Translations under genes and position numbers: made by a program
Origin: Synechocystis sp. PCC 6803 substr. PCC-P
GTDB taxonomy: Bacteria > Cyanobacteriota > Cyanobacteriia > Cyanobacteriales > Microcystaceae
Assembly (NCBI RefSeq): GCF_000284455.1
Contig: NC_017039.1
Span: forward strand, 1,170,001-1,202,000
DNA length: 32,000 bases
Direction of reading: 5' to 3'
Notes under the pieces: generated by a model
Seen by the model: only the letters and a program-made list of their open reading frames with translations
The model's database searches: none
Told to the model about the DNA's origin: nothing
Shown: in pieces, positions 10,015-29,962 of the stretch
How the letters are laid out: each line of letters starts with the position of its first letter
How positions within the stretch are numbered: position 1 is the first letter of the stretch

Positions 10015-10134
10015 TTAATATGGTGCGAGTCCCCCGCCTTGAGCGCCCTGGGCAAGCCCCTTCAAAAAGTCGTTTATCGCCAGAAGGGAACTGGCCCCTG
10101 CCAAAGCGAAAAAATTTCTCCGTGAATGTTTCAT
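10015..10134 (-). pseudogene. 5' stub of the DctP-type binding-protein gene (right copy of the duplication)
   Basis: The ATG at 10134-10132 reads MKHSRRNFFALAGASSLLAI, matching the first ~19 codons of the gene at 1-442. It then diverges (NDFLKGLAQGAQGGGLAPY) and stops after 39 codons. Confidence 0.75.
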
Positions 10135-10511
10135 AACTGATATTCCCCATCATTTAGCTCTGAATTATAAAGTCTAATTTTCAATCAAAGCTGACCTCAA
10201 TCACATTTTTGCCAAAGCTTTGATAGGCATCGCCCATTCCTTTCGCCATGGTGTCGTTGGGAAAAACGTGAAACTCGCCAGATTGTAGTGCAGCAATAAT
10301 AGCTTCCGCCACTAGGGTGGGGGATTCGGCAATATCAGCCCGGCCAGAAGCATGGGTCATTTCGGTGGCGATGGGGCCAGGATGGACGCTCTGAACCAGA
10401 GTGCCTTGTCCAGCCAGAACTTCCCGCAATGCCTGGGTAATGGAATAGGCTGCGGCTTTGGAAGCAGAATAAGTAGCAACATTGCAGAATGACTTGAGGG
10501 AAACTACTGAG
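10076..10511. repeat. Right copy of the diverged direct duplication (includes the intact SDR 3' region)
   Basis: See the left copy at 384-590. The offset is 9692 nt for the first block. Confidence 0.85.
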
Positions 10512-10927
10512 TTGAGTTGCACAAAAGCTCCCCCTCCATTGGCTTTGAGCACTGGAGCAAAGGCTTGGGCCATGGAGATCAACCCATACACATTGGTCTC
10601 CATTTCAAATTTCAAGCAGGCGATCGCCTCTTCGGCCAGGGGATTTGCAACTTTTTGCACCCCGGCATTATTGACCACAATTTCCACATCTGTGGCGGTT
10701 TGGGCAGCGGCGGCAATGGATTCTGGGTCTGCTAGATCGATCAAAATAGGGACTATTTTATTGCCATATTTGTCCACTAAGAAAGCGGCGCTTTCCAACT
10801 TTCTGACGGCGGCGTACACTTTTGCGGCCCCATGCTCCAAAAAAGACTCCACCAGTACTTTGCCTATCCCCCGATTGGCACCAGTAACCAGAACTGTTTT
10901 GTTGCTAATATCGATGGCCATGGGCAT
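10181..10927 (-). CDS. Short-chain dehydrogenase/reductase (SDR) family oxidoreductase
   Basis: 248-aa ORF with [12 protein letters not shown] (TGxxxGxG Rossmann motif), VVNNAGV (NNAG) and YSASKAA (catalytic YxxxK). Confidence 0.9.
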
Positions 10928-11318: not shown

Positions 11319-11864
11319 GTGAAAGTGAGCAAACGTTTTTTCCAGCCTTGTTTAGTGTTGGGGATTTCCCTTGGTTTATCTTTAGCCCTTGTTCCTGACG
11401 CCCTAGCCCTAAAAACCTATTATCAATTGCCCATAAGCCTAGCAGTAGAAGCGGCCATGGAAGCGGTCAATACCTGTCAACAGGATGGTTATAACGTCAC
11501 CGCCACGGTGGTCAATCGAGAAGGTTTAGTACAAGCTGTAATTCGGGGAGATGACGCCACCCCCCACACCATCGAAAATAGTTTTTATAAAGCCTTTACT
11601 TTGATTACCCTGGGCCCCATCACTGGGCAAGATTCCACTGGGGCGATCGCCCAAAAGATGACCCCAGCTCCTTTGCCTGTGGGTTCTGTGCCCTTGGCTC
11701 CCAATCCTATTACTGGTCTTAGTTTTAGCACCGGCGGCTCAGCCATTAAAGTGGGAGACCAATTAGTGGCGGCGATCGGCGTTTCTGGTTCACCCAATGG
11801 TAATTTAGACCAAACCTGTGGTCTGAAAGGTATTGAAAAAATTAAATCCCGTTTAGTGCCTTAA
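11319..11864 (+). CDS. Exported GlcG/HbpS-like (DUF336) protein, paralogue 1
   Basis: GTG start with AGAGG 10 nt upstream. Signal peptide MKVSKRFFQPCLVLGISLGLSLALVPDALA. Family-like core: VTATVVNREG..IRGD...H.....KA.T and AAIGVSGSPNGNLDQTCG. About 40% identical by eye to the ORF at 14966-15493. Confidence 0.75.
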   Translation: MKVSKRFFQPCLVLGISLGLSLALVPDALALKTYYQLPISLAVEAAMEAVNTCQQDGYNVTATVVNREGLVQAVIRGDDATPHTIENSFYKAFTLITLGPITGQDSTGAIAQKMTPAPLPVGSVPLAPNPITGLSFSTGGSAIKVGDQLVAAIGVSGSPNGNLDQTCGLKGIEKIKSRLVP

Positions 11865-11970
11865 ACTTTTACCCTTGTCCATGGTTGGTAACCCTTAAGC
11901 TTTTTTTACGGAAGACGATCAAGCGAAATATAAAGAAAAGTATCTCACTAAAGCCATCGAAATATTTTCC

Positions 11971-12840
11971 ATGAAACAGGTTAATTTTTTAGCTGGATTT
12001 TTGTCTAATTCCCTTATTACTTTAGTTATTATCTTTGTTGTCACTGTTGCCACCGTTACCACCTTACAAACAGCTAAAGCCGTTGCAACTTTAGATAATC
12101 AAAATATCTATACACCATCGGCGAGCAATATTCGAGGCATTCAGGAACGAATTGTTTATGATTTTCCCGATACGGGTTTGAAATTAACCATGCCCAGATT
12201 TCTTAAAGATCCTGTGGCTTTCGAAACTCCAGGCAAAGACGTATTAATTATGTTGAGAACACCGGCTGATACCTGTGGCTTGTATCAAATGGCGGAGGCT
12301 ATCTTAACCCCTAATGCTGGTCCGCCGCCCCATTTTCATTACGCTTCCGATGAGTGGTTTTTTTCTACGGAACCATCCCAAGTTCGGCTTTATAGTTCTC
12401 AGGAATTTCAGGCCCCGTTACAAGTCGGTCAAATTCCTGGGATTAATGTTGACCCCATTAAAGTTGGTTCCGTTCTCGAAGATCAAGGGGAAATAATTTT
12501 TTCTCCTAGGGGGATGGTGCATTATTTTCGTAATGAAACTCCGGGGAAAGCGGAAGTCCGGGGTTTTTATAATGTTTGGGCTCCTGGCTATGGCATTTCC
12601 GAACGATTTGAAGGAATTGATAACCTTGATGGATCCAACAGCAACCAGTCCATCCCCTTGGCACAGAAAGAGTTTTTACAAACAGCCCTTTGGGGAATTC
12701 CCCACGATATCACCGGCGGCTTTGTGGGAACTAAGGATTATTACAATGAGCGGGGTTCTGTTTTTATTCATCCCGATAACATCGAGGAACTCCAAGCCCT
12801 GTTCGACCAGGGGGAAGCTTGCTATCCCAATGAAGGATAA
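11971..12840 (+). CDS. Exported cupin-domain protein, paralogue 1 (divergent)
   Basis: N-terminal hydrophobic signal/anchor (..LITLVIIFVVTVATVTTLQTAKA). Cupin motif 1 is GPPPHFHYASDEWFF and motif 2 is GMVHYFRN. It shares the Cys pair (TCG...ACY) with the paralogues at 18334-19140 and 19365-20168. Confidence 0.75.
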   Translation: MKQVNFLAGFLSNSLITLVIIFVVTVATVTTLQTAKAVATLDNQNIYTPSASNIRGIQERIVYDFPDTGLKLTMPRFLKDPVAFETPGKDVLIMLRTPADTCGLYQMAEAILTPNAGPPPHFHYASDEWFFSTEPSQVRLYSSQEFQAPLQVGQIPGINVDPIKVGSVLEDQGEIIFSPRGMVHYFRNETPGKAEVRGFYNVWAPGYGISERFEGIDNLDGSNSNQSIPLAQKEFLQTALWGIPHDITGGFVGTKDYYNERGSVFIHPDNIEELQALFDQGEACYPNEG

Positions 12841-12919
12841 ATTGAATTTAATCTCTACATAATTAGACTTTTTTTCAAAAAAATATTTCAGTTTTTATTC
12901 TCAATTCAGGATTTTTTAA

Positions 12920-13900
12920 ATGCGTATTTTTCCTGTATTTTTACTAACTTTCAGCCTTTTTTTAATCAAGGAAGAAATAGTTACAGCAGAAGTTAAAGTT
13001 TCTGCGCCGGTGGTTAATCAATCTGGCATTAAGCTAAATCTTGAGCGACAATTTACGGGGTCTGATGTGGCTATTAACCGTATCCATTTTAGTCCCGACG
13101 GACAATTTTTACTAACGGCGGCCGCAGATGGCGTGGGCACTTTATGGACTAAAGAAGGGGAAATGCTGGGGCAACTACAGGGTCAAAAGCCCCCCATGTT
13201 CAATGCTCGTCTTTCCCCCGATCGCCAAATTTTAATCACCACTGGCTATGACGGTACCATTCGCTTGTGGAATTTGCAGGGGGAGCTACTGGAGGAACAA
13301 CAGCCCCATCGAGCAGCGGTGGCCGATGCCATATTTAGTCCCGACAGTCAAATTATTGTCACCTGTTCTGATGATGGCCAAACTAAAATTTTTACCCGCC
13401 AAGGTCAAGAAATAGCTAGTGTTTTAAAATCAGGTACAGCTCGAAATTTGGCGTACCATCCCCAGGGACTTTTAATTGCTAGTGTTTCCGATAGCGGTTC
13501 CCTCCATTTAATTAATCCCAACGGCAAAATTGAACGGGAAATTTCCACAGGCCAAGGGCGAATTAATAATGTTAACTTTAGTCCGAATGGTGAACAATTA
13601 TTAACTTCAGGCATTAATGGTTCTGCCAAGTTATGGAATTTAGCAGGGGAATTAATCCATGAATATAAAGTTGTGCCCACCGGTTGGGTTAACAGTGCCC
13701 AGTTCTATCCTAAAGGTGAATGGCTAGCCACCGCCAGTGACGACGGTACGATTAGATTTTGGCAAAAAGATGGTCAATTAATTTATGAATTACCGTTGGT
13801 TAATGCCCGCTTAACTAGCTTGAGTTTTTCTCCCGATGGCAAGCAGTTAGCGGCCACCAGCAGTCAGGGACAGGTTTGGGTTTTTAATTTATCTTATTAA
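12920..13900 (+). CDS. Exported WD40 (seven-bladed beta-propeller) protein, paralogue 1
   Basis: Signal peptide MRIFPVFLLTFSLFLIKEEIVTA. There are seven ~41-aa repeats with the F/Y-SPDG...D-G-T-x-x-LW pattern (IHFSPDGQ..GTLW, RLSPDRQ..IRLW, IFSPDSQ..TKIF, AYHPQG..LHLI, NFSPNGE..AKLW, QFYPKGE..IRFW, SFSPDGK..VWVF). Confidence 0.85.
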   Translation: MRIFPVFLLTFSLFLIKEEIVTAEVKVSAPVVNQSGIKLNLERQFTGSDVAINRIHFSPDGQFLLTAAADGVGTLWTKEGEMLGQLQGQKPPMFNARLSPDRQILITTGYDGTIRLWNLQGELLEEQQPHRAAVADAIFSPDSQIIVTCSDDGQTKIFTRQGQEIASVLKSGTARNLAYHPQGLLIASVSDSGSLHLINPNGKIEREISTGQGRINNVNFSPNGEQLLTSGINGSAKLWNLAGELIHEYKVVPTGWVNSAQFYPKGEWLATASDDGTIRFWQKDGQLIYELPLVNARLTSLSFSPDGKQLAATSSQGQVWVFNLSY

Positions 13901-13914
13901 GGATTAATAGCAAG

Positions 13915-14919
13915 ATGAAACATAAATTTCTAGTTAGTTTTTTACTGGGATTAACCATTAGTTTCGCGGGCGCCCAGGTTATTGCTAAAACGCCCTCGGT
14001 TAATAACGCCCCTGTAGCGCGGAGTGTAAACCAATCCCCCATTCAGCTAGAAGTTATTAAAAGTTACCAGGGTCATACGCTCAAAGGGGAAGCAATTATT
14101 CAAATTCATTACAGTCAAGATGGCAATTATTTGCTCTCTACTGCCACCGATGGTTTGGCTAAACTTTGGACAGCGGATGGAGAATTGGTGCGGGAATTTG
14201 CTGGTAAGCCTGTAGCTATGATTTTTAACGGTGCCTTTAGCAGGGACGGGAAAGCCATTATTACCGCTGGCTACAACGGTGTTGCCCGTATTTGGGATGT
14301 GCAGGGCAATGTATTGGGGGAAATTCTAGGCCACACTTCTGCTGTTACCGATGTAGTTTTCTTGAGTGATGATATGGGGGTAGTCACCAGTTCCGATGAC
14401 GGCACTATTGAAGGTTGGTCAAACATTAAAGAACCACTGTTTACTGTAACTCGTCCTGGGGTGAGTCGTAATATGGACTTTAATGCCCAGACAAACTTGA
14501 TTGCTGTCACCCAAGATATTGGCGAAATTACGTTACTAAATCCCGCTGGAAAAGTTGTAAGAATTATCGAAACCGATCAAGGTCGCCTCAATGATGTCGA
14601 TTTTAGTCAAGATGGTAAGTTGTTAGTTACAGCTGGTTTTGATGGCACAGCTCGGGTGTTTAATCTTGATGGCCAAGAAATATTAAAAATTGATGTGCTT
14701 GATGATGGGTGGGTTACTGGGGTTGCCATCAACCAAGACAATTTAATTGCCACCGTTTCCGACGATGGCATTTTAAGAGTGTGGAATTTACAGGGACAAT
14801 TATTGGGGCAATATAACCCCAATTTAGAAAGATTGGGCAGTGTATCTTTCCATCCCAACGGCAAAAATTTGGCGATCGCCGCTTACCACGGCACCATTAT
14901 TTTGCTGGAGTTGCAATAA
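13915..14919 (+). CDS. Exported WD40 (seven-bladed beta-propeller) protein, paralogue 2
   Basis: Starts 14 nt after the previous gene. Signal peptide MKHKFLVSFLLGLTISFAGAQVIA. WD-like repeats include IHYSQDGN..AKLW, AFSRDGK..ARIW, VFLSDD..IEGW, DFSQDGK..ARVF, ..LRVW and SFHPNGK. Confidence 0.85.
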   Translation: MKHKFLVSFLLGLTISFAGAQVIAKTPSVNNAPVARSVNQSPIQLEVIKSYQGHTLKGEAIIQIHYSQDGNYLLSTATDGLAKLWTADGELVREFAGKPVAMIFNGAFSRDGKAIITAGYNGVARIWDVQGNVLGEILGHTSAVTDVVFLSDDMGVVTSSDDGTIEGWSNIKEPLFTVTRPGVSRNMDFNAQTNLIAVTQDIGEITLLNPAGKVVRIIETDQGRLNDVDFSQDGKLLVTAGFDGTARVFNLDGQEILKIDVLDDGWVTGVAINQDNLIATVSDDGILRVWNLQGQLLGQYNPNLERLGSVSFHPNGKNLAIAAYHGTIILLELQ

Positions 14920-14965
14920 ATAGGAAGAAGACTGATATTTTTGCCCGATTCTTAACTATTTTCAC

Positions 14966-15493
14966 TTAACGTAAATCTGGCAGAACAGCATCCCGACCTT
15001 TAATGGCACAACCTTCGTCCACCATCCCAATGGGAGTGCCGGAAACCCCCAAGCCTCCCACCACTTTGCCCTGGGAAATCAAGGTCACTCCGCCGGGAAA
15101 AAGGGTGATGCCCGTGAGGGGATCGGCAGGCATGGGCCATGTGCCCACTCCCTGGGCTCCCTTTGCTTGCATTGACGCCAAAATACCAGAAGTCCTGTCC
15201 AAATTATGATTGGTAGCTAGGGTAACGGCGGAATAGGCTTTATTGAATGAAGTTTGCACCGTATGCACAAGGGCCCCATCGCTACGAATGACCACCAACA
15301 CATTACCTTCGGGATTGACGACGGTGGCCGTAACCCCATAACCTTCCTGACGACAAGCGGCGATCGCCGACTGGGCCGCTTTAATGGCAATTTCCGCAGG
15401 TAAAACGGGGGTTTCTTCTAGGGCCAAAGCTGGTAGAGCTAAACCCGTTAAAGCAATGGTAGTTAATAGCGGAGTAAAAGTAAATTTGAGCAT
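14966..15493 (-). CDS. Exported GlcG/HbpS-like (DUF336) protein, paralogue 2
   Basis: Signal peptide MLKFTFTPLLTTIALTGLALPALA. Core motifs are VTATVVNPEGNVLVVIRSDGA..HT and GGLGVSGTPIGMVDEGCA. Both Cys positions are conserved with paralogue 1 (ACRQ/TCQQ and EGCA/QTCG). Confidence 0.75.
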   Translation of the reverse strand: MLKFTFTPLLTTIALTGLALPALALEETPVLPAEIAIKAAQSAIAACRQEGYGVTATVVNPEGNVLVVIRSDGALVHTVQTSFNKAYSAVTLATNHNLDRTSGILASMQAKGAQGVGTWPMPADPLTGITLFPGGVTLISQGKVVGGLGVSGTPIGMVDEGCAIKGRDAVLPDLR

Positions 15494-15554
15494 GGTGAAA
15501 TTCCTTGTTTGACAACAAAATTGCTGGGATATTTTAGGCTAATTATTCTGTTAA

Positions 15555-16562
15555 TTAACTGGTGGCACTAGGGACAAAATTAGGCACATTGGGATAAACA
15601 TTTTGAATATCTTCCCGAATGGTATTGGGGTCATTTAATGCAAAGTTGGCAATGTCAATTTTTTTCATAAACGCCACCCCTGGTTTTGCCATCACATACT
15701 TAAGAAAATCTTCAAATACATAAACATGCTCCGGCCGTTGCAGGCGATCGTGCATTGTTACCGCCATCATCCGTCGTCGATAGGCAGCTTCCTCATAAAG
15801 GCGATCGAAAGAGTTTTTCAACTCGGTTAAGTACTGGCCAGAGGAAAAGAAGCGGGCCTCATAAGCACGAATATCATTCAGATAAACGGCGTAGGGCACC
15901 ACCATGATAGATTTGCCGTTGTTGAGGTTAACAATGAAAGGTTCATCCCGGCTGACATCATCAATGTGATAAACAAAACCCAATTCATTCAGTACAGTAA
16001 GAATATTGACAGAACCCCGTAAACCCGGGGCATTGTAGCCCACTGCCCGCTGTCCTGTAACTTTTAGGATTATGTCCACATTACGTTGAATAAAGTCCCT
16101 TTCCTGGGGCGCGGTCATATTAAATTCATTGTCCCAATCCCAACCATGGGCCGCCGCTTCATGGCCCCGTTGGACAATTTCCTTGGCCCGGTCTGGATAC
16201 ATTTCCACCGTGCGCCCAGACATGTGGGAAGTGATTTTAATTTTGTACTTATCTAGTAAATCGAGAATACGGGGAACCCCTTCCGTATAGCCATAGCGGT
16301 ACCAAGTAATGGTGGGCATATCGTAGTAATCCGGCGGCGGGGTAAAGTTTCCAAAGGGAGTAGGAGCACCTTTGGCCGGCTGACTGCCTGTTTCAAACAT
16401 TAAAGACAGGGAAATAGGCAAACGGATATTGTCGGGCCAAAATTTACCGCCCCTATTGCTAGATTGTTGCGCCAACAGTGGCTTATTGCCCATCAAAGCG
16501 TAACTGGCGATCGCCCCGGCTCCGGTGGCCAGGCCATATTTAAACAGATCTCTTCTTTGCAT
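15555..16562 (-). CDS. Tat-exported polysaccharide-deacetylase-fold protein, PuuE-like (divergent NodB domain)
   Basis: Twin-arginine signal MQRRDLFKYGLATGAGAIASYAL..AQQ. The body has LSLMFETGS in place of the canonical TFDDG, then GHEAAAHGWDW. This resembles the metal-independent PuuE/allantoinase-like branch (from memory). Confidence 0.6.
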   Translation of the reverse strand: MQRRDLFKYGLATGAGAIASYALMGNKPLLAQQSSNRGGKFWPDNIRLPISLSLMFETGSQPAKGAPTPFGNFTPPPDYYDMPTITWYRYGYTEGVPRILDLLDKYKIKITSHMSGRTVEMYPDRAKEIVQRGHEAAAHGWDWDNEFNMTAPQERDFIQRNVDIILKVTGQRAVGYNAPGLRGSVNILTVLNELGFVYHIDDVSRDEPFIVNLNNGKSIMVVPYAVYLNDIRAYEARFFSSGQYLTELKNSFDRLYEEAAYRRRMMAVTMHDRLQRPEHVYVFEDFLKYVMAKPGVAFMKKIDIANFALNDPNTIREDIQNVYPNVPNFVPSATS

Positions 16563-16565
16563 AAT

Positions 16566-17453
16566 TCAGGACTCCTTGGTGGTTGCAAAAGTGGTTAAAA
16601 TTGCCTGGAAAATTTCCTCCGGTGCTTCCTCAGGAATGTAATGGCCACACTGTTCAATCACGTAACCAGTAATGTCATCACAATAGGGAGATAAACCGTT
16701 ATAAATTAAAGATTTAGTGGCAAATTCTCCCCCCATAGTAAAAATTGGCTGACTAAAATGCGTCTCCGCCGTGGGAGTATTAGCCTTTGTTGTTTCCTCT
16801 AGGGCAGAGTACCAAAGAAAACCAGCTTTCATTGCCCCAGGACGACTATAGTAACGAGCATAGTAATCCATGACTTCGGGGGTAAGATTCTGCTTCCGTT
16901 TAGATTTATTAGTGAAATACCAACTGAGATATTCATTTTCTTTTCCTGTAACCAAACTACTAGCTAAATCCGGCACCATATGAAAATAAAACTGCCAAAC
17001 TTTTGGTGCATTAACCACAGAGAAGAAATCGTTACTAACCAAACCGGGAATAGCTGCATCAATTAATCCTGCCCCCAGCACAGCTTCTGGAAAAAATTTC
17101 AGCACTGTAAAGGCAACCCAAGCCCCCACATCATGACCCACTAAGTAAAAAGAATTAATTTCTTTTTTGGCTAAAAAGGCTTTAATTTCCCTCGCCGCTG
17201 TGCCGCAATCATAGGGGCCATCGGGAATATCGGAATCCCCCTGACCCCTCATATCCAGGGCAATTACCCGGAAATGCTCTCCCAATTGTTCTAGCAATAG
17301 CCGCCAGACGTAGCAGGTTTGGGGCCAGCCCCCCAGTAGAAGTAATGGTTGCCCGCTTCCCCCTTCAATGGCATGAAGATTCACTCCTTCAACGTCGGTA
17401 TAGGTATGCTCAAAGCTTGATGGCAAGGCGATAGGAATAAAGGGGCTATTCAT
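16566..17453 (-). CDS. Alpha/beta-fold hydrolase, epoxide-hydrolase/haloacid-dehalogenase-like (Asp nucleophile)
   Basis: 295 aa with no signal peptide. Has LLLLGGWPQTCYVWR (the HGxP-W box with G replacing H), the nucleophile elbow LVGHDVGAW (G-H-D-x-G), and a C-terminal GHYIPEE (His of the triad). Confidence 0.8.
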   Translation of the reverse strand: MNSPFIPIALPSSFEHTYTDVEGVNLHAIEGGSGQPLLLLGGWPQTCYVWRLLLEQLGEHFRVIALDMRGQGDSDIPDGPYDCGTAAREIKAFLAKKEINSFYLVGHDVGAWVAFTVLKFFPEAVLGAGLIDAAIPGLVSNDFFSVVNAPKVWQFYFHMVPDLASSLVTGKENEYLSWYFTNKSKRKQNLTPEVMDYYARYYSRPGAMKAGFLWYSALEETTKANTPTAETHFSQPIFTMGGEFATKSLIYNGLSPYCDDITGYVIEQCGHYIPEEAPEEIFQAILTTFATTKES

Positions 17454-17473
17454 AGATTATTGACTGAGTAAAT

Positions 17474-18337
17474 TTAGTTAGTTTGATAAGTTTGTCGCAA
17501 AAATTTCAGTCCATCTTGGGCAAGGGCTTCATTACTGGGAGCCACCGTGCGCCACAAGCGGGCTCCATTAGCCAATTCCTTATCCTCAAAATTAAAACTT
17601 TCAATGGTGACCCAACCTTGGTAATCCATGGTTTGTAAGGCTTTAAACCAATGGCCCCAAGCAAAGGAATCACTGCCGGGAGTGCCCCGGTCTTTGGCAC
17701 AGGCATGGATATGAAAACAATGATTGCTCGCTTGTAAAAAAGCTTTGATTACATCCTTTTCTTCAATATTCATGTGGAATAAATCCAGTAATAGCCCCAG
17801 TTGAGGACAATCCACTGCATCGAGCAATTCTAAGCCTTGAGCTACAGTATTTAAAGCATAACCTTGAAAACGATTCAGGGGTTCCACAGCAAACTTCAGA
17901 TCAGTTTTGATCAGAGTTTCCGCTACCAGCTTAAAGGCCTCCTGCATGCGAACATTTTCCCGTTTTTGCAGAGGTTCTCCACTGAGATAACCCACAGGAT
18001 GGGGGAACGGCCCAGAGAGTTGAATGATGCCGCATTGTTGACAGAATTTAATTGCCCTTTCCAGATAAGCAATGGATTCCCGCCAGCAGTCTTCATCCTT
18101 GGTAGTCAAGGATAAACCCCGGGGTAAACTGGTGCAAAAGGTTAGCTCTACACCATACTTTTCGCCATAACTTTTAAGTTGGAGGGGATCAATTTGGTCG
18201 AAATAATGGGTGGCAATTTCTATCCCATCAAATCCCCACCTTTTAGCATCTTGGAAAACATATTCTTCATTACCAAGAAATTCTTTTTTCCAGATAAAAG
18301 TATGAACTCCAAACTTGATTTTGGGGGAAGAAATCAT
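17474..18337 (-). CDS. Xylose-isomerase-like TIM-barrel protein (sugar isomerase/epimerase family)
   Basis: 287 aa with no signal peptide. Has WGFDGIEI, AVEPLNRFQ, LLLDLFHMNIEE and HIHACAKDRGTPG, which are typical of the AP-endonuclease-2/ketose-3-epimerase-like barrel. The start overlaps the upstream stop (ATGA at 18334-18337). Confidence 0.75.
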   Translation of the reverse strand: MISSPKIKFGVHTFIWKKEFLGNEEYVFQDAKRWGFDGIEIATHYFDQIDPLQLKSYGEKYGVELTFCTSLPRGLSLTTKDEDCWRESIAYLERAIKFCQQCGIIQLSGPFPHPVGYLSGEPLQKRENVRMQEAFKLVAETLIKTDLKFAVEPLNRFQGYALNTVAQGLELLDAVDCPQLGLLLDLFHMNIEEKDVIKAFLQASNHCFHIHACAKDRGTPGSDSFAWGHWFKALQTMDYQGWVTIESFNFEDKELANGARLWRTVAPSNEALAQDGLKFLRQTYQTN

Positions 18338-19140
18338 GAGCAGGTTACCGATTTATCACCACGGTTAAAAGCTTCAATTACCTCCACCATACGCTCTAAG
18401 TCTTTATCATTTTTTAGTTTGGCAATTTGGGCAGGTAATTTGTCACTAATGGTGTTGACATATTCCATAAAGTAGGAACTTTGATTAATCCCATATTTGG
18501 GAGCTTCCGAAGCAAAGGCCGCCCTTTGGGCATTGGTCAATTCCGGTAAATTGTTCAAATCAGTAATGCGGGGCCCCACAGCTTGAAAATATTCCCGCAT
18601 CCCACCGTCATGGTAGGGAAAATCCGGTGCAACTTCATTACGCATCCAAACAAAAACAATGGGTAATGTTTTATCCGTAGGATTAACAAAACCATGCATG
18701 TAATGGTTGGGAGAATAAATCAATTGTTTGGGTTCGCTTTGAATGCTATACAAATCTCCCCGACCGGCTCCCCCGACCACAGGTAACTCGTCCATATTGG
18801 GATATTGTTTAGTGCTGTGGAACAGTTCAATACCGCCTTCCGGAGTCCAAAACCATTCATTGATGAAGTAATGAATATGGGGCATGGGGCCGCCTCCGGG
18901 GGGAATTTGGGCGTGGGCGATGGCAAAACCAATGTCCTTGGCACTACAGGAAGCAATATCAAAAATTTCGTTGGCAGGAGTATAAATTAGCAGGGGATCC
19001 GCTAATTTGGGCATGGGAATATCGTCAAAGGTATGAATTTCTGTTTCTGCGGCAACGCTAAAATTTTGCAAAAACAGAATAGTCCCCAACGTCAGAGTTA
19101 AAACTAGACCAATACCCCAAAGTTTGACTTTCAATAGCAT
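18334..19140 (-). CDS. Exported cupin-domain protein, paralogue 2
   Basis: Signal peptide MLLKVKLWGIGLVLTLTLGTILFLQNFSVAA. Perfect cupin motif 1, G(x)5HxH(x)4E(x)6G, as GGGPMPHIHYFINEWFWTPEGG. Motif 2 is HGFVN. Conserved Cys pair (SCSAKD ... VTCS). Confidence 0.85.
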   Translation of the reverse strand: MLLKVKLWGIGLVLTLTLGTILFLQNFSVAAETEIHTFDDIPMPKLADPLLIYTPANEIFDIASCSAKDIGFAIAHAQIPPGGGPMPHIHYFINEWFWTPEGGIELFHSTKQYPNMDELPVVGGAGRGDLYSIQSEPKQLIYSPNHYMHGFVNPTDKTLPIVFVWMRNEVAPDFPYHDGGMREYFQAVGPRITDLNNLPELTNAQRAAFASEAPKYGINQSSYFMEYVNTISDKLPAQIAKLKNDKDLERMVEVIEAFNRGDKSVTCS

Positions 19141-19166
19141 AATTGCTTCTCCAGGCTAATTTAGAT

Positions 19167-19337
19167 TTAAAAACCAAATTTTTGCTTGATAAACGTGTAA
19201 GTGACTTGGCCTAAAAGACAGGCTCCGGCAGCGACTAAGCCTTCAAAAGGGGGAACGGGCAAGGGGAGTTTGAAAAAGCCAAAAATCACTCCTAAGATCC
19301 AGCCGCCAAGAATGGCAAAGCCTAGTTCTTTACTCAT
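19167..19337 (-). CDS. XapX-like small membrane protein (56 aa), not in the supplied ORF track
   Basis: Codon-by-codon manual translation gives MSKELGFAILGGWILGVIFGFFKLPLPVPPFEGLVAAGACLLGQVTYTFIKQKFGF*. It has two hydrophobic helices separated by a P-x-P-x-P-P turn, the pattern I recall for the XapX domain (G.l.G.i......P.PP...l.G..G.l.G). It sits 26-27 nt from both flanking cupin genes. Confidence 0.6.
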   Translation of the reverse strand: MSKELGFAILGGWILGVIFGFFKLPLPVPPFEGLVAAGACLLGQVTYTFIKQKFGF

Positions 19338-19364
19338 AAATTTTCCCAGAAATTGTTGAAAGTA

Positions 19365-20168
19365 TTAAAAGCATTTAACAGTTGCATCGCCTTGATTGTA
19401 GGCATTGATAGTATCGATAATCCGGTTTAAGCTCTGATCATTTTCTAACTTAGTTAATGACGTTGGTAGCTTGCCGCTAACCCCATCTACATACTCAAAA
19501 AAGTAGTAGCTTTGGTTAATACCATAAAGGGGAGCATGGCTGACAAATTCTATTTTGGATTCCTCTGTGATAGCTGGCAAATGCTTTAAATCTTTGATGG
19601 GAATGCCCACGTCCTGGAAATATTCCCGGATGCCACCGTCATGCAATTCGTATTCAGGAGAAATGCCGTCTTCCAACCAAATAAAGGTCAAAGGACGGGT
19701 TTCTGTGGTGGTATTGGCAAAGCCATGGACTCGATATTTGGGCCCGTAAACGATCTGATTGGGTTCAGTATTAACAGTGTACACAGTGGTATTGCCGGCC
19801 TGTTCATCGGTGGCGGGATTCTCCAAATCGGGGTACTCTTTCACACTTTGAAATAGTTGCAGTCCCCCTTTCGGAGTCCAAAACCACTCATTGGTGTAAT
19901 GATGGATGTGAGGTAGTGGTCCCGCCCCTGGGGGAATCTGGGCTTCCGCAATGGTGAAACCAATACCATCGGCATTGCAAGTGGAAAATTCAAAAATTTC
20001 CCCTGCTGGTCCCAGAATTTTTTCTGTTTTTTCTATGTTGGGATGGGGAAAATTATCCAACGTAGAAATTGCCAAGGCTTTAGGAATTGCTATGGTCAAA
20101 GTGCCTAAAACTATCAGTAAAATGAGGCACAACTTGGAAAGTAATGGGGATAAACGTAAAGTTTTCAT
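19365..20168 (-). CDS. Exported cupin-domain protein, paralogue 3
   Basis: Signal peptide MKTLRLSPLLSKLCLILLIVLGTLTIAIPKALA. Motif 1 is GAGPLPHIHHYTNEWFWTPKGG and motif 2 is HGFAN. About 50% identical by eye to paralogue 2 along its full length. Conserved Cys pair (TCNADG ... VKCF). Confidence 0.85.
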   Translation of the reverse strand: MKTLRLSPLLSKLCLILLIVLGTLTIAIPKALAISTLDNFPHPNIEKTEKILGPAGEIFEFSTCNADGIGFTIAEAQIPPGAGPLPHIHHYTNEWFWTPKGGLQLFQSVKEYPDLENPATDEQAGNTTVYTVNTEPNQIVYGPKYRVHGFANTTTETRPLTFIWLEDGISPEYELHDGGIREYFQDVGIPIKDLKHLPAITEESKIEFVSHAPLYGINQSYYFFEYVDGVSGKLPTSLTKLENDQSLNRIIDTINAYNQGDATVKCF

Positions 20169-20194
20169 GACGTTGACTAGGATTTGAGGAAAAC

Positions 20195-20638
20195 TTACAA
20201 TGTCTGCGTTTCGGCTATTTTATAAATCTTAATTTCGGCTGGCTTAGCTAATAAATCAGGAGATTTTTCCACAAATTCATGGAAGTAAGGGGTTTGAAAA
20301 TGATAGTCGAGGGCCGCTCGATTCCGCCAAACTTCAAAAAAAAGAAAAGAATTATCTTCCGTTTCATCCTCATAAAAACTGTAGGAAATACAGCCAGGTT
20401 CCGACCGAGAAGGCTCAATAAATGTCTGGGATAGGGCAATAAATTCTTCTTTTTTATCGGGTTTTACCTTAATGTTGCCCGCTACGACAATGGGATCGTC
20501 CGCCCCCTTAACATCCTCTGCCAAACTGGGAGATGGCAGCAAGAAAATGCTAGTAAACACCAAAAAGGAAAGGATAATGGTCAGCCCCCTTTTTAGCAAT
20601 GCTGCTCTGTTATCAGACAGAAAAAAATCAGCTCTCAT
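20195..20638 (-). CDS. Exported ABM-domain (antibiotic-biosynthesis-monooxygenase/Dabb fold) protein
   Basis: N-terminal hydrophobic signal ..GLTIILSFLVFTSIFLLPSPSLA, then a ~95-aa ABM-like core: IKVKPDKKEEFIALSQTFIEPSRSEPGCISYSFYED..FLFFEVWRNRAALDYHFQTPYFHEF. The exact start codon is uncertain. Confidence 0.7.
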   Translation of the reverse strand: MRADFFLSDNRAALLKRGLTIILSFLVFTSIFLLPSPSLAEDVKGADDPIVVAGNIKVKPDKKEEFIALSQTFIEPSRSEPGCISYSFYEDETEDNSFLFFEVWRNRAALDYHFQTPYFHEFVEKSPDLLAKPAEIKIYKIAETQTL

Positions 20639-21121: not shown

Positions 21122-21688
21122 ATGTCATCAAGAAAAAATTACTACTTAGGTTTGAAAGCGGACTATTCGCAGCCCGGCCTTGTGCCCGATACCCTCAAGG
21201 AGAAATTAATCGCTGAAGGCATTGCCTACGTAGCCCAAAAGGAAGCCACCCTACCGGCGATCGATGATTCTTACACCCTGGAAGTTATTGAACAGGAAAA
21301 CAAAGATTGGTGGCCAACCCACTGTGAAGCTTTGCGACAGGGTCGGGGAGATATTTTAACCGGGGAATACCGGGAAGATTTGGTTTACTTTTGCCAAGAT
21401 GGTCCCTACTCTGGCCTGGAACAACAACAGGAACGGGAAAAACATTGGTGGGCTTTAATTGCTCAGCCTGGGGTTACCATGGTCTGGCCCATTGTCATGT
21501 TTTACGGTGAACATACTTTCTTTGAATGGAAATGTGTGGACGATGAAACCCACGAAACGATCGCCAAGGGCAATGTCACCTGGGTGCGCCGGGGTCACCG
21601 GGGTGGCTGTTATTTAAAAACAGAACAACTCACTTTTTATCGGGACGTGTTTGCTCCTGATAGTTTACTAAAACTAATCACTACCTAG
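21122..21688 (+). CDS. Hypothetical protein, C-terminal half NTF2/SnoaL-like (tentative)
   Basis: 188-aa ORF with compact spacing to the next gene (11 nt). The C-terminal pattern YREDLVYFCQDG..G......W.......G......V...GE.TFFEWKC.D..T.E.IAKGNVTWVRRG is reminiscent of SnoaL-like folds. The call is weak. Confidence 0.4.
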   Translation: MSSRKNYYLGLKADYSQPGLVPDTLKEKLIAEGIAYVAQKEATLPAIDDSYTLEVIEQENKDWWPTHCEALRQGRGDILTGEYREDLVYFCQDGPYSGLEQQQEREKHWWALIAQPGVTMVWPIVMFYGEHTFFEWKCVDDETHETIAKGNVTWVRRGHRGGCYLKTEQLTFYRDVFAPDSLLKLITT

Positions 21689-21699
21689 GAGTTAGCCCC

Positions 21700-22041
21700 A
21701 TGAGTGAGTTTAAAAACGCTGTGCTGGATGATAAAGACCTCCAGGCAGGTCTGGGTGGGATTAATCCTAAATTTGGTGATTTTTGCACCAGGGTAGCGGG
21801 GGAAGCCTGGGGTTTACCATTAATTGATCAAAAAACTAAAGCCCTAATTGTCATTGCGGTGGATGTGGCTAATCAGACCCTCAGTGGCCCTTTTCAAGCC
21901 CATGTGGATATGGCCCTAAAACAGGGTGCTACTAAGGAAGAAATTGAAGAAGTGCTCTCCTTCATGTGTGTTTATGGTGGCTTTAATAAAGCCGCTGGAG
22001 CTTTTGCCGCCCTAAAAGAAATTTTCGAGCAAAATTCTTAG
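21700..22041 (+). CDS. Carboxymuconolactone decarboxylase (CMD/AhpD-like) family protein
   Basis: 113 aa with GGAG 8 nt upstream. The pattern LIDQKTKALIVIAVDVA......QAHVDMALKQGATKEEIEEVLSFMCVYGGFNKA is typical of the CMD family. Confidence 0.75.
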   Translation: MSEFKNAVLDDKDLQAGLGGINPKFGDFCTRVAGEAWGLPLIDQKTKALIVIAVDVANQTLSGPFQAHVDMALKQGATKEEIEEVLSFMCVYGGFNKAAGAFAALKEIFEQNS

Positions 22042-22110
22042 ATAACTTTTAAAAATCCCCCCTGGTTCCCAACCTCGGAGAAATTTATTCCTCATCAAAT
22101 TAGGAGCTTT

Positions 22111-22707: not shown

Positions 22708-22739
22708 AAACCTTTCCGTCCTTCCCGTGGCATCAACAT

Positions 22740-24898: not shown

Positions 24899-24907
24899 CA
24901 GGACACC

Positions 24908-27031: not shown

Positions 27032-27090
27032 ATTGTCTTAAATTTCCCTTTCCCTTCAATTCACCATTATTTAGATTTTTGTAAAAAACC

Positions 27091-27417: not shown

Positions 27418-27516
27418 ACAACAAAGTTTTGCCAGTGCATAGTTGAAAATCAACCGCATAAATGGAGGAGATAGAATATTAGTAAGGAGCTAAATTACTT
27501 TTGGTAAATTAAACCA

Positions 27517-29421: not shown

Positions 29422-29426
29422 GTGCC

Positions 29427-29858: not shown

Positions 29859-29962
29859 TGTTACGAGAGAAAGTAAATTAATTGAATAATTGCTACAATT
29901 ACCAACATTTAAATATTTGATTTGCCCACTGCAACCTTTTCTTTGTTATTGTTTCTTTTTTC

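What the first reader, a model, noticed from the sequence alone, without database searches (positions are those of the whole stretch)
11319..20638. Convergent two-arm cluster of 12 genes, mostly exported and built from paralogue sets: candidate uncharacterised periplasmic pathway
**Plus arm.** GlcG-like, cupin, WD40, WD40 (11319-14919).

**Minus arm.** ABM, cupin, XapX-like peptide, cupin, TIM-barrel isomerase, alpha/beta hydrolase, Tat-deacetylase, GlcG-like (20638-14966).
- Spacers on this arm are 26, 27, 26, -4 (ATGA overlap at 18334-18337), 20, 3 and 61 nt.
- That spacing suggests a single operon.

**Export signals.** Nine of the 12 products start with Sec-type or Tat-type signals, and one more is a two-helix membrane peptide. 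Only the hydrolase and the TIM-barrel protein look cytoplasmic.

**Paralogue families.** Each arm carries members of the same two families (DUF336 and cupin). Both families keep a conserved Cys pair, consistent with periplasmic disulfides.

**Function.** No regulator, transporter or known pathway enzyme set is present, so the substrate is not deducible. I do not know a characterised system that combines DUF336, cupin, WD40 propeller, ABM and PuuE-like deacetylase in the periplasm.
Basis: partly seen in the sequence, partly recalled or inferred. Interest (0 to 1): 0.8.

Follow-up and report, generated by a model that had tools for sequence, protein, structure and literature searches.

The report
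Known Synechocystis CucA periplasmic gene cluster

Summary
All 12 ORFs, their families, the operon-like spacing, nine signal peptides (one Tat), one two-helix peptide and the Cys pairs are there.

The locus is not unknown. The window is 99.995% identical to a Synechocystis PCC 6803-type chromosome. Gene 18334-19140(-) is 100% identical to PDB 2XL7, Sll1785/CucA, the periplasmic Cu(II) cupin. The two arms are the published slr1406-1410 and sll1783-sll1307 operons, reported as co-repressed by salt together with the adjacent slr1852-icfG operon.

Synteny in 30 other loci moves the boundaries:
- The recurrent set is CucA-type cupin, 56-aa peptide, TIM barrel, Cif-like hydrolase, ABM and DUF336.
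- It usually comes with slr1852, CMD, DJ-1, an AGE-like protein, GlgX and a partner-switch module, and often with a Tat-exported DctP binding protein.
- In PCC 6803 the start of that dctP lies at window 2-442, cut off from the cluster by the slr1403 gene.
- The canonical WD40 pair and the PuuE-like gene are lineage-specific.

Function remains unproven. My best inference is oxidative processing of a small phenolic or enediol organic acid across the envelope.

Verdict: real and coherent, already known as a locus, moderately interesting.

The parts
2..442 (-). 5' part (152 codons, runs off the window) of a Tat-signal DctP-family TRAP solute-binding protein. This is probably sll1314 dctP; the name is assigned only from a supplement annotation plus gene numbering.
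   Evidence: tblastn gives 64% identity to the DctP encoded inside the NIES-970 sll1783-type operon. That protein matches Pfam DctP at 1e-58. All orthologues carry an SRRNFL twin-arginine motif. The name sll1314 dctP appears in the PMC8670252 supplement.
384..529 (.). Left copy of a ~146-bp direct repeat that brackets the slr1403 segment.
   Evidence: About 93% identical to window 10076-10220. Strain CACIAM05 has a single copy that joins the SDR gene directly to dctP.
10076..10220 (.). Right copy of the ~146-bp direct repeat.
10181..10927 (-). sll1308, a short-chain dehydrogenase. It keeps its place beside the cluster in S. salina and CACIAM05.
   Evidence: Pfam adh_short 3e-34. Synteny. Distant cytoplasmic CucA-like cupins in proteobacteria also sit next to SDR genes.
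11319..11864 (+). slr1406, an exported HbpS-like/DUF336 protein. Name inferred from the published operon range slr1406-1410.
   Evidence: Pfam 71 bits. Signal peptide and Cys53/Cys167. Orthologues lie convergent to the operon in NIES-970, Geminocystis and S. salina, and are present in TMED88 and an Eremiobacterota MAG. The Cys pair is invariant in 8 of 8 sequences.
11971..12840 (+). slr1407, an exported distant CucA-family cupin that keeps the His-His-Glu-His ligands.
   Evidence: Matches the CucA PDB sequence at 4e-9, with HFHY...E and VHYF aligned to the ligand positions. Signal sequence and two Cys. A strong orthologue (1e-88) is present in the TMED88 cluster.
12920..13900 (+). slr1409, an exported WD40 beta-propeller.
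   Evidence: Pfam WD40 2e-44. Signal peptide. Orthologue found only in close relatives (L002, L005).
13915..14919 (+). slr1410, an exported WD40 beta-propeller, annotated 'periplasmic WD-repeat protein'.
   Evidence: Pfam WD40 2e-34. Signal peptide. Name from PMC3479031. A more divergent exported propeller follows dctP in other cyanobacteria.
14966..15493 (-). sll1307, an exported HbpS-like/DUF336 protein.
   Evidence: Pfam 79 bits. Closest solved structures are extracellular haem-binding proteins 4nkp and HbpS 3fpv; EfgA and NahX match more weakly. Signal peptide and Cys47/Cys162.
15555..16562 (-). sll1306, a Tat-signal CE4-fold hydrolase of the PuuE/HpPgdA subgroup.
   Evidence: Pfam Polysacc_deac_1 1e-24. 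RRDLFK motif. PuuE allantoinase 3cl6 1e-31. TIGR03212 scores 127.7 against a cut-off of 424.6. Present only in 6803-type strains, PCC 6312 and one MAG. DctP fills this slot elsewhere.
16566..17453 (-). sll1305, a signal-less Cif-like alpha/beta hydrolase of the epoxide-hydrolase/dehalogenase clade.
   Evidence: Best PDB match is 7jqz (Cfl2) at 5e-57, then Cif at 1e-42. Asp108, Asp132, Tyr215 and His271 are invariant. The residue equivalent to Cif His177 is Gln in 12 of 12 sequences.
17474..18337 (-). sll1304, a signal-less metal-dependent TIM barrel of the ketose 3-epimerase type. Name inferred by elimination.
   Evidence: Pfam AP_endonuc_2 5e-40. D-tagatose 3-epimerase 7erm 1e-30. Glu152, Asp185, His211 and Glu246 are invariant in 12 of 12 sequences. 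Below the NCBIfam equivalog cut-off (148 against 300).
18334..19140 (-). sll1785 = cucA, the periplasmic Cu(II) cupin.
   Evidence: 100% identical over residues 31-268 to PDB 2XL7/2XL9/2XLA/2XLF/2XLG 'SLL1785 protein'. The AF2 model matches the crystal at TM 0.99. Literature on Sec export and Cu loading: PMC4192464.
19167..19337 (-). 56-aa two-helix membrane peptide, XapX-like.
   Evidence: TIGR03510 19.5 bits, below cut-off. Conserved between the two cupin genes, or just after the cupin, in at least 10 loci with E 1e-13 to 1e-35.
19365..20168 (-). sll1784, an exported CucA paralogue.
   Evidence: 4e-81 to the CucA PDB sequence, 45% identity. The ligands are invariant wherever the position is covered; one end-truncated fragment shows a gap at the fourth ligand. 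The Cys pair is kept in the Synechocystis-type clade.
20195..20638 (-). sll1783, an ABM-domain protein with an N-terminal signal/anchor sequence.
   Evidence: Pfam ABM 2e-23. Signal. [quoted passage not shown] Orthologues in NIES-970 and Aliterella have no room for a signal peptide.
21122..24563 (+). slr1852 (unassigned fold, very highly conserved), slr1853 (CMD), slr1854 (DJ-1/PfpI) and slr1855 (AGE-like). This is the first half of the divergently transcribed operon that travels with the cupin set.
   Evidence: Pfam. Synteny across cyanobacteria, Eremiobacterota and picocyanobacterial MAGs. Co-repressed by salt.
24569..29858 (+). slr1856 (STAS), slr1857 (GlgX2 isoamylase), slr1859 (STAS), slr1860 (IcfG, a PP2C phosphatase) and slr1861 (kinase). 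Together these are the partner-switching regulators plus a glycogen debranching enzyme.
   Evidence: ORFs. Pfam from the annotated locus. Literature.

Best explanation
The region is the Synechocystis sp. PCC 6803 pair of convergent operons slr1406-slr1410 and sll1783, sll1784, a 56-aa ORF, sll1785 (cucA), sll1304, sll1305, sll1306 and sll1307. That part is shown.

It is the envelope arm of a larger, co-regulated locus. The conserved partners are the divergent slr1852-icfG operon (Slr1852, CMD, DJ-1, AGE-like, GlgX2 and a STAS/kinase/PP2C partner switch), the sll1308 SDR, and a Tat-exported DctP-type solute-binding protein. This is shown by synteny and by published co-regulation.

The most likely mechanism is inferred, not shown. 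A small redox-active organic acid, most plausibly phenolic or enediol-like, is bound in the periplasm by DctP, the DUF336 proteins and the propellers. It is oxygenated or cleaved there by the His3-Glu metal cupins (Cu(II)-CucA, Sll1784, Slr1407), together with the ABM protein in strains where that protein is exported. In 6803-type strains it is further hydrolysed by the Tat-exported PuuE-like enzyme. The products are finished in the cytoplasm by the Cif-like hydrolase Sll1305, the epimerase-type TIM barrel Sll1304 and the Slr1852, CMD and DJ-1 set. Expression is tied to carbon status through cyAbrB1 and the IcfG module. The substrate is not identified.
For: Identity:
- One mismatch in 20,807 nt to chromosome CP129343.1.
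- CucA is 100% identical to PDB 2XL7.
- Gene names and annotations match the PMC8670252 supplement.

Coherence:
- Salt represses all three operons at both mRNA and protein level.
- The title of Hishida 2024 reports that cyAbrB1 knockdown induces the divergent icfG and sll1783 operons.
- sll1783-1785 belong to the core transcriptional response.

Synteny:
- The order ABM, Sll1784, XapX-like, CucA, TIM, hydrolase is kept in S. salina, Pseudanabaena SR411, NIES-970 and PCC 6312. Geminocystis keeps the same genes split into two blocks.
- In Eremiobacterota MAGs the same families are collinear with AGE, STAS, GlgX, STAS, kinase, PP2C, Slr1852, CMD and DJ-1. In Cyanobium-type MAGs they are intermixed in a single string.
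- Eremiobacterota fuse an alpha/beta hydrolase to the TIM barrel.
- DctP with a Tat motif sits inside the operon in four genomes. In 6803 it is separated only by the repeat-flanked slr1403 segment.

Chemistry:
- The cupin ligands His-His-Glu-His and Trp165 are conserved in every homologue that covers them.
- The nearest non-self folds to CucA are quercetinases.
- Distant family members in Erwinia and Pedobacter sit beside FAD aromatic-ring hydroxylases, methyltransferases and an SDR. In Pedobacter they also sit beside a Sll1305-like hydrolase and a TIM barrel.
- In other cyanobacteria the slot next to slr1852 holds ABM plus tyrosinase, or EthD, SnoaL, glyoxalase, cupin and SDR genes.
- The catalytic residues of Sll1304 and Sll1305 are invariant.
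Against: - No substrate, product or activity is known for any member except metal binding by CucA.
- The best matches of Sll1304 are sugar (ketose) epimerases. The neighbours GlgX and the AGE-like protein point to carbohydrate rather than aromatic chemistry.
- Quercetinase similarity is weak: TM 0.42-0.62 and 14% identity.
- The aromatic-hydroxylase contexts belong to relatives that are only about 30% identical, cytoplasmic, and lack the Cys pair.
- ABM export is not conserved. The canonical WD40 pair and the PuuE-like gene are lineage-specific.
- DctP is an orphan. No DctQ or DctM membrane subunit was seen in any annotated locus.
- Co-regulation might partly reflect regional silencing by the nucleoid proteins cyAbrB1 and cyAbrB2, which bind long AT-rich tracts. 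This region is 39-45% GC.
- Signal peptides were judged by a heuristic only.
Confidence: 0.45

Rival explanations
1. Cell-envelope or exopolysaccharide processing. The exported proteins modify or recycle peptidoglycan or EPS sugars: Sll1306 acts as a CE4 deacetylase and Sll1783 is 'associated with polysaccharide processing'. Sll1304, Slr1855 and GlgX2 then handle the released sugars in the cytoplasm.
For: - Title of Miranda 2017 on Sll1783.
- Klaehn 2021 speculates about cell-wall synthesis or reorganisation.
- Sll1306 is listed among outer-cell-layer proteins altered in Deg protease mutants.
- CE4 fold, with the H. pylori peptidoglycan deacetylase 3qbu among the hits.
- Sll1304 resembles ketose 3-epimerases.
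- AGE-like and GlgX genes are adjacent.
Against: - Sll1306 is the least conserved member, and a solute-binding protein replaces it in most orthologous operons.
- Its best matches are PuuE allantoinases, which do not act on polysaccharides.
- There is no glycoside hydrolase, glycosyltransferase or polysaccharide-export gene in the cluster.
- Cupins with a His3-Glu site, ABM, a Cif-like hydrolase, CMD and DJ-1 are not typical glycan-processing enzymes.
Confidence: 0.2
2. Metal and redox buffering or sensing rather than a pathway. CucA and its paralogues mainly store or buffer periplasmic and lumenal copper. The HbpS-like DUF336 proteins bind haem or iron and report redox stress. The enzymes next door are unrelated passengers.
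For: - CucA is described as a major Cu(II)-binding protein of the periplasm, needs the CtaA/PacS/Atx1 route for loading, and has no known activity.
- A role in copper supply to the lumen has been proposed.
- The closest solved DUF336 structures are extracellular haem-binding proteins. EfgA, a more distant match, is to my knowledge a formaldehyde sensor; that function is recalled, not read here.
Against: - The cupin genes keep strict synteny with catalytic-looking enzymes whose active-site residues are invariant.
- CucA has an open, water-occupied coordination position like catalytic cupins.
- Relatives in proteobacteria are cytoplasmic and sit in enzyme clusters.
- No copper or iron regulator or transporter is in the locus.
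- The locus responds to salt, carbon and cyAbrB1 rather than to metals in the papers read here.
Confidence: 0.15
3. Fortuitous adjacency. The two arms are unrelated gene sets that look co-regulated only because they lie in one AT-rich, nucleoid-protein-silenced and possibly horizontally acquired island.
For: - GC is 39-45% across the region.
- cyAbrB2 and cyAbrB1 bind long low-GC tracts and repress the genes in them.
- The CucA family is patchy, with only 30 protein clusters found.
- The slr1406-1410 arm as such is seen only in the closest relatives.
Against: - The A1-type DUF336 protein, an exported propeller, DctP and the Slr1407-type cupin recur next to the cupin, TIM and hydrolase genes in rearranged orders, in different genera and phyla.
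- The arms share paralogues of two families.
- Nine of 12 products share the same compartment.
Confidence: 0.07

Closest known systems
CucA (Sll1785) of Synechocystis PCC 6803, the periplasmic Cu(II) cupin (PDB 2XL7, 2XL9, 2XLA, 2XLF, 2XLG; Tottey 2008 and Waldron 2010 as summarised in PMC4192464)
   Same: Gene 18334-19140(-) is this protein, at 100% identity. Sll1784 (45% identical) and Slr1407 (29%) are paralogues with the same His-His-Glu-His site.
   Different: Only metal binding, export route and structure are characterised. No catalytic function or pathway is assigned to CucA, and the paralogues are unstudied.
The 'sll1783 operon' and 'icfG operon' of Synechocystis PCC 6803 (Hishida 2024; Klaehn 2021; Shi 1999)
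   Same: Same genes. Already described as divergent or convergent co-regulated operons linked to carbon metabolism.
   Different: In the papers read here they are regulatory targets of unknown function. The cross-phylum synteny, the DctP link and the residue-level assignments were not found in those papers; Hishida 2024 and Miranda 2017 could not be read.
Quercetinases (cupin dioxygenases: Ni-QueD 5FLH, B. subtilis YxaG 1Y3T)
   Same: Nearest non-self folds to CucA, with a cupin barrel. Recalled from the quercetinase literature, not tested here: they share a 3His+Glu metal site with an open position, and the fungal enzymes use Cu(II).
   Different: Only 14% identity and TM 0.42-0.62. CucA has an extra C-terminal helical domain and a Cys pair. 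No flavonol activity has been shown.
HbpS of Streptomyces reticuli and other DUF336 proteins (EfgA, NahX, GlcG)
   Same: Slr1406 and Sll1307 are exported DUF336 proteins whose closest solved relatives are extracellular haem-binding proteins.
   Different: No SenS/SenR-type sensor kinase is nearby. Haem binding is untested. A conserved Cys pair is present in the cyanobacterial proteins.
Cif and Cif-like (Cfl1, Cfl2) epoxide hydrolases of Pseudomonas and Burkholderia
   Same: Sll1305 shares the fold and the Asp nucleophile, acid, His and Tyr residues. Best PDB hit is Cfl2 at 5e-57.
   Different: The ring-opening His177 of Cif is invariantly Gln in the Sll1305 clade. Sll1305 has no signal peptide in cyanobacteria, whereas the Eremiobacterota orthologues carry a Tat-like signal.
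Ketose 3-epimerases (D-tagatose / D-psicose 3-epimerase)
   Same: Sll1304 aligns over its full length. The motif residues that I recall as the ketose 3-epimerase metal and catalytic set (Glu152, Asp185, His211, Glu246) are conserved in Sll1304.
   Different: It scores half the NCBIfam equivalog cut-off, so substrate specificity cannot be transferred.
PuuE allantoinase / HpPgdA subgroup of CE4 'polysaccharide deacetylases'
   Same: Sll1306 has the same fold and aligns over about 270 residues (1e-31).
   Different: It is far below the TIGR03212 cut-off, is Tat-exported, and is not part of a purine catabolic cluster.
TRAP transporter solute-binding proteins (DctP family)
   Same: The partial gene at window 2-442 and its operon-embedded orthologues are DctP-family proteins. 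An Arg aligns with an Arg of 4OAN in the NG(F/M)R stretch. I recall that Arg as the carboxylate-binding residue of the family; this was not tested here.
   Different: No DctQ or DctM membrane genes are nearby. The protein has a Tat rather than a Sec signal. The closest liganded structures are only weakly similar (E 7e-25).

Membership tests
Synechocystis PCC 6803 cucA / sll1783 locus | Sequence identity to the reference chromosome and to the deposited Sll1785 protein | tested here: met
   99.995% over 20.8 kb to CP129343.1. 100% over 238 residues to PDB 2XL7.
CucA-type cupin (for Sll1784 and Slr1407) | His-His-Glu-His metal ligands and the adjacent Trp | tested here: met
   H88, H90, E95, H149 and W165 are invariant in the 18-sequence alignment. 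In the locus sets they are invariant apart from one gap in an end-truncated fragment. Slr1407 aligns HFHY..E and VHYF to the ligand positions.
CucA-type cupin (for Sll1784 and Slr1407) | Cu(II) occupancy in vivo | not testable with these tools
   Needs metalloproteomics of periplasm extracts.
Sec/Tat-exported periplasmic proteins | N-terminal signal peptide (n, h and c regions), or a twin-arginine motif for Tat | tested here: met
   Heuristic only. 9 of 12 products have max 10-residue hydropathy of 1.5-3.6, a positive n-region and AXA-type sites. Sll1306 has RRDLF. The PDB CucA chain begins at about the predicted cleavage site. SignalP and TatP were not available.
HbpS-like / DUF336 (PF03928) | Pfam score above the gathering threshold | tested here: met
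   71.2 and 79.1 bits against 25.
HbpS-like / DUF336 (PF03928) | Haem or iron binding, and partnership with a SenS-type sensor kinase | tested here: not met
   No histidine kinase is in the window or in orthologous loci next to the DUF336 genes. Haem binding itself is not testable here.
Ketose 3-epimerase (NF051856 equivalog) | Score above the curated equivalog cut-off | tested here: not met
   148.2 bits against 300.
Ketose 3-epimerase (NF051856 equivalog) | Glu-Asp-His-Glu metal and catalytic residues | tested here: met
   E152, D185, H211 and E246 are invariant in 12 of 12 orthologues. Their assignment as catalytic rests on my knowledge of the family motifs.
PuuE allantoinase (TIGR03212) | Score above the curated cut-off | tested here: not met
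   127.7 bits against 424.6. The general CE4 domain PF01522 is met, at 87 bits against 23.
Cif-like epoxide hydrolase | Asp nucleophile, charge-relay acid and His | tested here: met
   D108, D132 and H271 align to the Cif residues and are invariant.
Cif-like epoxide hydrolase | His/Tyr ring-opening pair | tested here: not met
   The Tyr is kept (Y215). The residue equivalent to Cif His177 is Gln154 in all 12 clade members.
ABM (PF03992) | Pfam score above the gathering threshold | tested here: met
   82.9 bits against 23.1. Monooxygenase activity is not testable here.
XapX domain (TIGR03510) | Score above the curated cut-off | tested here: not met
   19.5 bits against 27.8. The ORF is nevertheless conserved in at least 10 loci.
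TRAP transporter | DctP solute-binding subunit together with DctQ and DctM membrane subunits | tested here: not met
   DctP is present. No DctQ or DctM family gene appears in the annotated neighbourhoods of L031, L032 or L002, or in the window ORFs examined.
Single operon (minus arm) | Co-transcription of sll1783 through sll1307 | tested here: inconclusive
   Spacers from -4 to 61 nt, conserved gene order and common salt repression all fit. The consensus promoter and terminator scan was uninformative. The transcription-unit table of Kopf 2014 could not be opened.

The most novel reading that the evidence does not exclude
The CucA-family cupins are periplasmic copper dioxygenases. Together with the DUF336 proteins, the exported propellers and a Tat-exported orphan DctP, they form a previously unrecognised envelope system that oxidises an external or self-produced phenolic or reductone-type organic acid. 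That system is wired, through the conserved Slr1852, CMD, DJ-1, AGE, GlgX and IcfG block, to glycogen mobilisation in Cyanobacteria and Eremiobacterota. A further twist is possible: the signal-less Sll1305, whose gene is always followed within a few bases by one for a Tat-signal protein, and whose Eremiobacterota orthologue has its own Tat-like signal, might reach the periplasm by Tat hitch-hiking.
Probability: 0.15. Interest if true: 0.7.

Novelty: already known. Interest (0 to 1): 0.35.

Why it matters
CucA is a textbook example of how the site of protein folding decides which metal a protein acquires. Even so, none of the papers read here assigns it a catalytic activity.

Three results give concrete experimental handles on that question and on the function of the icfG carbon-regulation locus:
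- CucA belongs to a gene set conserved across phyla, with a solute-binding protein and invariant-active-site enzymes.
- That set is tied to a glycogen-debranching and partner-switching operon.
- Distant relatives of CucA sit beside aromatic-ring hydroxylases.

As a discovery, however, the cluster itself is not new.

Tried and rejected
- The consensus promoter and terminator scan of 10000-22000 found fewer sites than shuffled sequence. It says nothing about operon ends.
- AlphaFold2 of Slr1852 from a 20-sequence, low-diversity alignment gave pLDDT 45. The model was discarded and no fold search was run. The PDB sequence search for Slr1852 found nothing.
- NCBIfam gave no equivalog-level name for any of the 10 products tested.
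- Purine or allantoin catabolism was considered, because of the PuuE-like enzyme, the XapX-like peptide, cupins resembling ureidoglycine-type enzymes, and a GlcG-like protein. It was rejected. Both the PuuE and XapX matches are far below cut-off, the PuuE-like gene is the least conserved member, and no other purine-catabolic gene is present.
- Transferring a ligand from the closest DctP structure (4OAN, E 7e-25) was rejected as too distant.
- Hishida 2024 and Miranda 2017 are not held. Only their titles, and how other papers cite them, could be used.
- One protein look-up (P0091) was not on record.
- The metagenome scan, the third homology search and the representative-library search were not used. 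The genome loci already answered the co-occurrence question.

Full report
**1. The observation**

All twelve ORFs exist at the stated coordinates. Family assignments are as follows.
- Pfam confirms two HbpS-like/DUF336 proteins, two WD40 propellers, a CE4 'polysaccharide deacetylase' domain, an alpha/beta hydrolase, an AP_endonuc_2 TIM barrel and an ABM domain.
- The three 'cupins' are weak or invisible to Pfam. All three match one solved structure, the SLL1785 protein, at 100% identity, E 4e-81 and E 4e-9.
- The 56-aa ORF hits the XapX domain only below cut-off. It is conserved in at least ten related loci.

The minus-arm spacers are 26, 27, 26, -4, 20, 3 and 61 nt, and the convergent gap is 46 nt.

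A hydropathy, charge and AXA heuristic supports signal sequences in nine products, including RRDLFK in the deacetylase. It finds a two-helix peptide, and nothing in the hydrolase or the TIM barrel. None of the 11 flanking products has a cleavable signal (Fisher p = 3e-4).

Each mature DUF336 protein and each cupin carries exactly two Cys. These are retained in orthologues and are absent from cytoplasmic proteobacterial cupin relatives. The caveat is that no dedicated signal-peptide predictor could be run.

**2. What the locus is**

The window differs by one base in 20,807 from a 3.57-Mb chromosome, CP129343.1. Gene 18334-19140(-) is residue-for-residue the crystallised Sll1785 protein. This is therefore Synechocystis sp. 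PCC 6803.

With the annotations in the supplement of PMC8670252 and the other papers read, the genes are:
- Plus arm: slr1406, slr1407, slr1409, slr1410.
- Minus arm: sll1783 (ABM), sll1784, a 56-aa ORF, sll1785 (cucA), sll1304, sll1305, sll1306, sll1307.

Some of these names are inferred from gene order and annotation. PMC8670252 calls Sll1305 the epimerase-like protein in its text but 'probable hydrolase' in its table.

To the right lie slr1852-1855 and the icfG cluster: STAS, GlgX2, STAS, IcfG and a kinase. To the left lie the SDR sll1308 and the giant slr1403.

**3. What is already published**

- CucA is a Sec-exported periplasmic Cu(II) cupin. Its His3-Glu site has an open water position, and its loading depends on CtaA, PacS and Atx1. 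The review read here gives it no enzymatic role (PMC4192464). It was also labelled in the thylakoid lumen (PMC9764255).
- Klaehn et al. describe exactly this region as three coordinately salt-repressed operons, slr1406-1410, sll1307-1304 with sll1784-1785, and slr1852-1862. They note the unknown function and speculate about the cell wall. Their tables show mRNA and protein decreases for the genes retrieved.
- sll1783-1785 belong to the core transcriptional response.
[quoted passage not shown] - Sll1306 and Slr1410 change in Deg protease mutants.

The cluster is thus known as a locus. Its chemistry is not.

**4. Conservation redraws the unit**

I fetched 25 genomic loci that encode CucA-family cupins, and annotated neighbourhoods for eight further proteins. 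I then searched all window proteins against their six-frame ORFs.

Close relatives:
- The order ABM, Sll1784, XapX-like, CucA, TIM, hydrolase is kept in S. salina, Pseudanabaena SR411, [Synechococcus] NIES-970, Synechococcus PCC 6312 and a MAG. Geminocystis NIES-3709 has the same genes split into two blocks.
- In four of these genomes the hydrolase or CucA gene is followed by a DctP-family solute-binding protein with an SRRNFL twin-arginine signal, then by a divergent exported beta-propeller. An Slr1406-type DUF336 gene lies convergent to them.
- In PCC 6803, PCC 6312 and one MAG, the Tat-signal PuuE-like gene occupies the DctP slot.

Distant relatives:
- Two Eremiobacterota MAGs place DUF336, AGE, STAS, GlgX, STAS, kinase, PP2C, Slr1852, CMD, DJ-1, cupin, ABM, TIM and hydrolase on one strand.
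- Cyanobium-type MAGs intermix hydrolase, TIM, Slr1852, DUF336, CMD, cupin, XapX and DJ-1.
- The marine MAG TMED88 adds DctP and a strong Slr1407 orthologue.

The canonical WD40 pair and the PuuE-like gene are confined to the closest relatives. The natural unit is therefore the cupin, peptide, TIM, hydrolase, ABM and DUF336 set together with the slr1852-icfG block and DctP. It is not the 12 genes as drawn.

**5. The missing transporter-type gene is in the window**

Window 2-442(-) encodes the first 152 residues of that DctP, at 64% identity to NIES-970. In strain CACIAM05 the SDR, dctP and the propeller gene are contiguous. In PCC 6803 the slr1403 segment lies between them, bracketed by a ~146-bp direct repeat at 384-529 and 10076-10220. 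CACIAM05 has that sequence only once. No DctQ or DctM gene was seen in any annotated neighbourhood, so the binding protein is an orphan.

**6. Residue-level reading of the enzymes**

- Sll1305 is closest to the Cif-like epoxide hydrolases (Cfl2 5e-57, Cif 1e-42). The Asp nucleophile, acid, His and Tyr are invariant. Cif's ring-opening His177 is Gln in all 12 clade members, which marks a distinct subfamily.
- The Eremiobacterota orthologues of Sll1305 carry Tat-like signals. Those MAGs also fuse a second alpha/beta hydrolase to the TIM barrel.
- Sll1304 aligns over its full length with ketose 3-epimerases, with Glu152, Asp185, His211 and Glu246 invariant. It scores half the equivalog cut-off.
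- Sll1306 is closest to PuuE allantoinase (1e-31) but far below that family's cut-off.
- The closest solved relatives of the DUF336 proteins are extracellular haem-binding proteins, with EfgA and NahX further off.
- The AF2 model of CucA reproduces the crystal (TM 0.99). Its nearest other folds are quercetinases, weakly, at TM 0.42-0.62 and 14% identity.

**7. Clues to the chemistry**

- Distant cytoplasmic CucA-family cupins in Burkholderia, Pseudomonas and Erwinia lack the signal and the Cys pair, and sit next to SDRs.
- In Erwinia the neighbours are an FAD aromatic-ring hydroxylase, a methyltransferase, an AMP-ligase and an MFS transporter.
- In Pedobacter an exported family member sits with a Sll1305-like hydrolase, an AP_endonuc_2 TIM barrel, two FAD hydroxylases and an O-methyltransferase.
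- In other cyanobacteria the very widely conserved slr1852, CMD, DJ-1, AGE, STAS, GlgX, STAS, kinase, PP2C block (more than 900 Slr1852 clusters) is accompanied by varying redox accessories. These are ABM plus tyrosinase, or EthD, SnoaL, glyoxalase, cupin_2, SDR and AhpC.

These recurrences favour oxygen-dependent chemistry on a phenolic, quinone-like or enediol substrate. The epimerase-like TIM barrel, the AGE-like protein and GlgX2 instead favour a sugar-derived substrate. I cannot decide between the two from sequence.

**8. Best explanation and rivals**

I consider the following shown:
- the identity of the locus;
- its coherence, from co-regulation and synteny;
- the predicted periplasm/cytoplasm split (proven only for CucA), and its physical link to the icfG locus and to dctP.

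I consider the mechanism inferred: periplasmic capture and cupin- or ABM-mediated oxygenation of a small organic acid, with finishing steps in the cytoplasm (overall confidence 0.45).

The rivals are:
- envelope or EPS polysaccharide processing (0.2);
- copper and redox buffering or sensing (0.15);
- fortuitous adjacency within an AT-rich, cyAbrB-silenced island (0.07). The region is 39-45% GC, and cyAbrB2 represses long low-GC tracts.

**9. Novelty and score**

The cluster, its operon structure, its co-regulation and its best-known member are all published, so the finding is 'already known'. The following were not found in the papers read here:
- the cross-phylum synteny with the icfG block;
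- the alternation of DctP and the PuuE-like gene in one slot;
- the repeat-flanked separation of dctP by slr1403;
- the Gln-for-His signature of the Sll1305 clade;
- the aromatic-hydroxylase contexts of distant CucA relatives.

These turn the open question of what CucA does into testable experiments. Interest is 0.35.

Noticed in passing
window 384-529 and 10076-10220 (flanking 826-9876): A ~146-bp direct repeat (about 93% identical) brackets the segment that carries the 3016-aa slr1403 gene (FG-GAP, Calx-beta and BNR domains). The sister strain CACIAM05 has one copy of the repeat and no slr1403, so there the SDR gene runs straight into dctP. Either a duplicative insertion occurred in 6803, or recombination between the repeats deleted the segment in CACIAM05.
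   Followed up: partly
window 2-442 (-): The truncated 5' end of a Tat-signal DctP-family solute-binding gene (probably sll1314). Its orthologues lie inside the sll1783-type operon in other cyanobacteria.
   Followed up: yes
window 8001-9000: A GC-rich (54.5%), strongly G-skewed stretch inside slr1403. It encodes long Gly-rich low-complexity sequence.
   Followed up: no
L009 11236-12900 and L013 10581-12905 (Eremiobacterota MAGs): An alpha/beta hydrolase domain is fused in frame to the Sll1304-type TIM barrel. The separate Sll1305 orthologue downstream carries a Tat-like signal (MRRTRFLR...), unlike the signal-less cyanobacterial protein.
   Followed up: partly
window 16566-17453 (-) and 11 orthologues: In the Sll1305 clade the residue equivalent to the ring-opening His177 of the epoxide hydrolase Cif is Gln in all 12 sequences. 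The rest of the catalytic set is invariant.
   Followed up: yes
L029 8276-9652 and L034 6343-7698 (Rivularia PCC 7116 and another large cyanobacterial genome): A tyrosinase gene and an ABM gene, together with a small NHase-alpha-like peptide gene, lie immediately upstream of the slr1852 homologue. This is where Synechocystis has the cupin operon.
   Followed up: no
L031 8601-8927 (NIES-970) and L012 853-1158 (Aliterella): The ABM orthologue has no room for a signal peptide; the stop-to-stop ORF is 109 codons in NIES-970. Export of Sll1783 is therefore lineage-specific.
   Followed up: partly
L031 15622-17091 (NIES-970): An RPE65-family carotenoid oxygenase gene lies directly beside the cluster's DUF336 gene. 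This may be coincidence.
   Followed up: no
window 27000-32000: GC drops to 36-40% over the icfG end of the window, against 44-52% just upstream.
   Followed up: no
window 21122-21688 (+): Slr1852 is extraordinarily conserved: 75-95% identity across more than 100 listed cyanobacterial clusters, and E about 1e-90 to Eremiobacterota. It has no Pfam family and no PDB relative. One source names a homologue 'NTF2 family'. A ChIP-seq study reported intragenic NtcA binding here (PMC5714215).
   Followed up: partly
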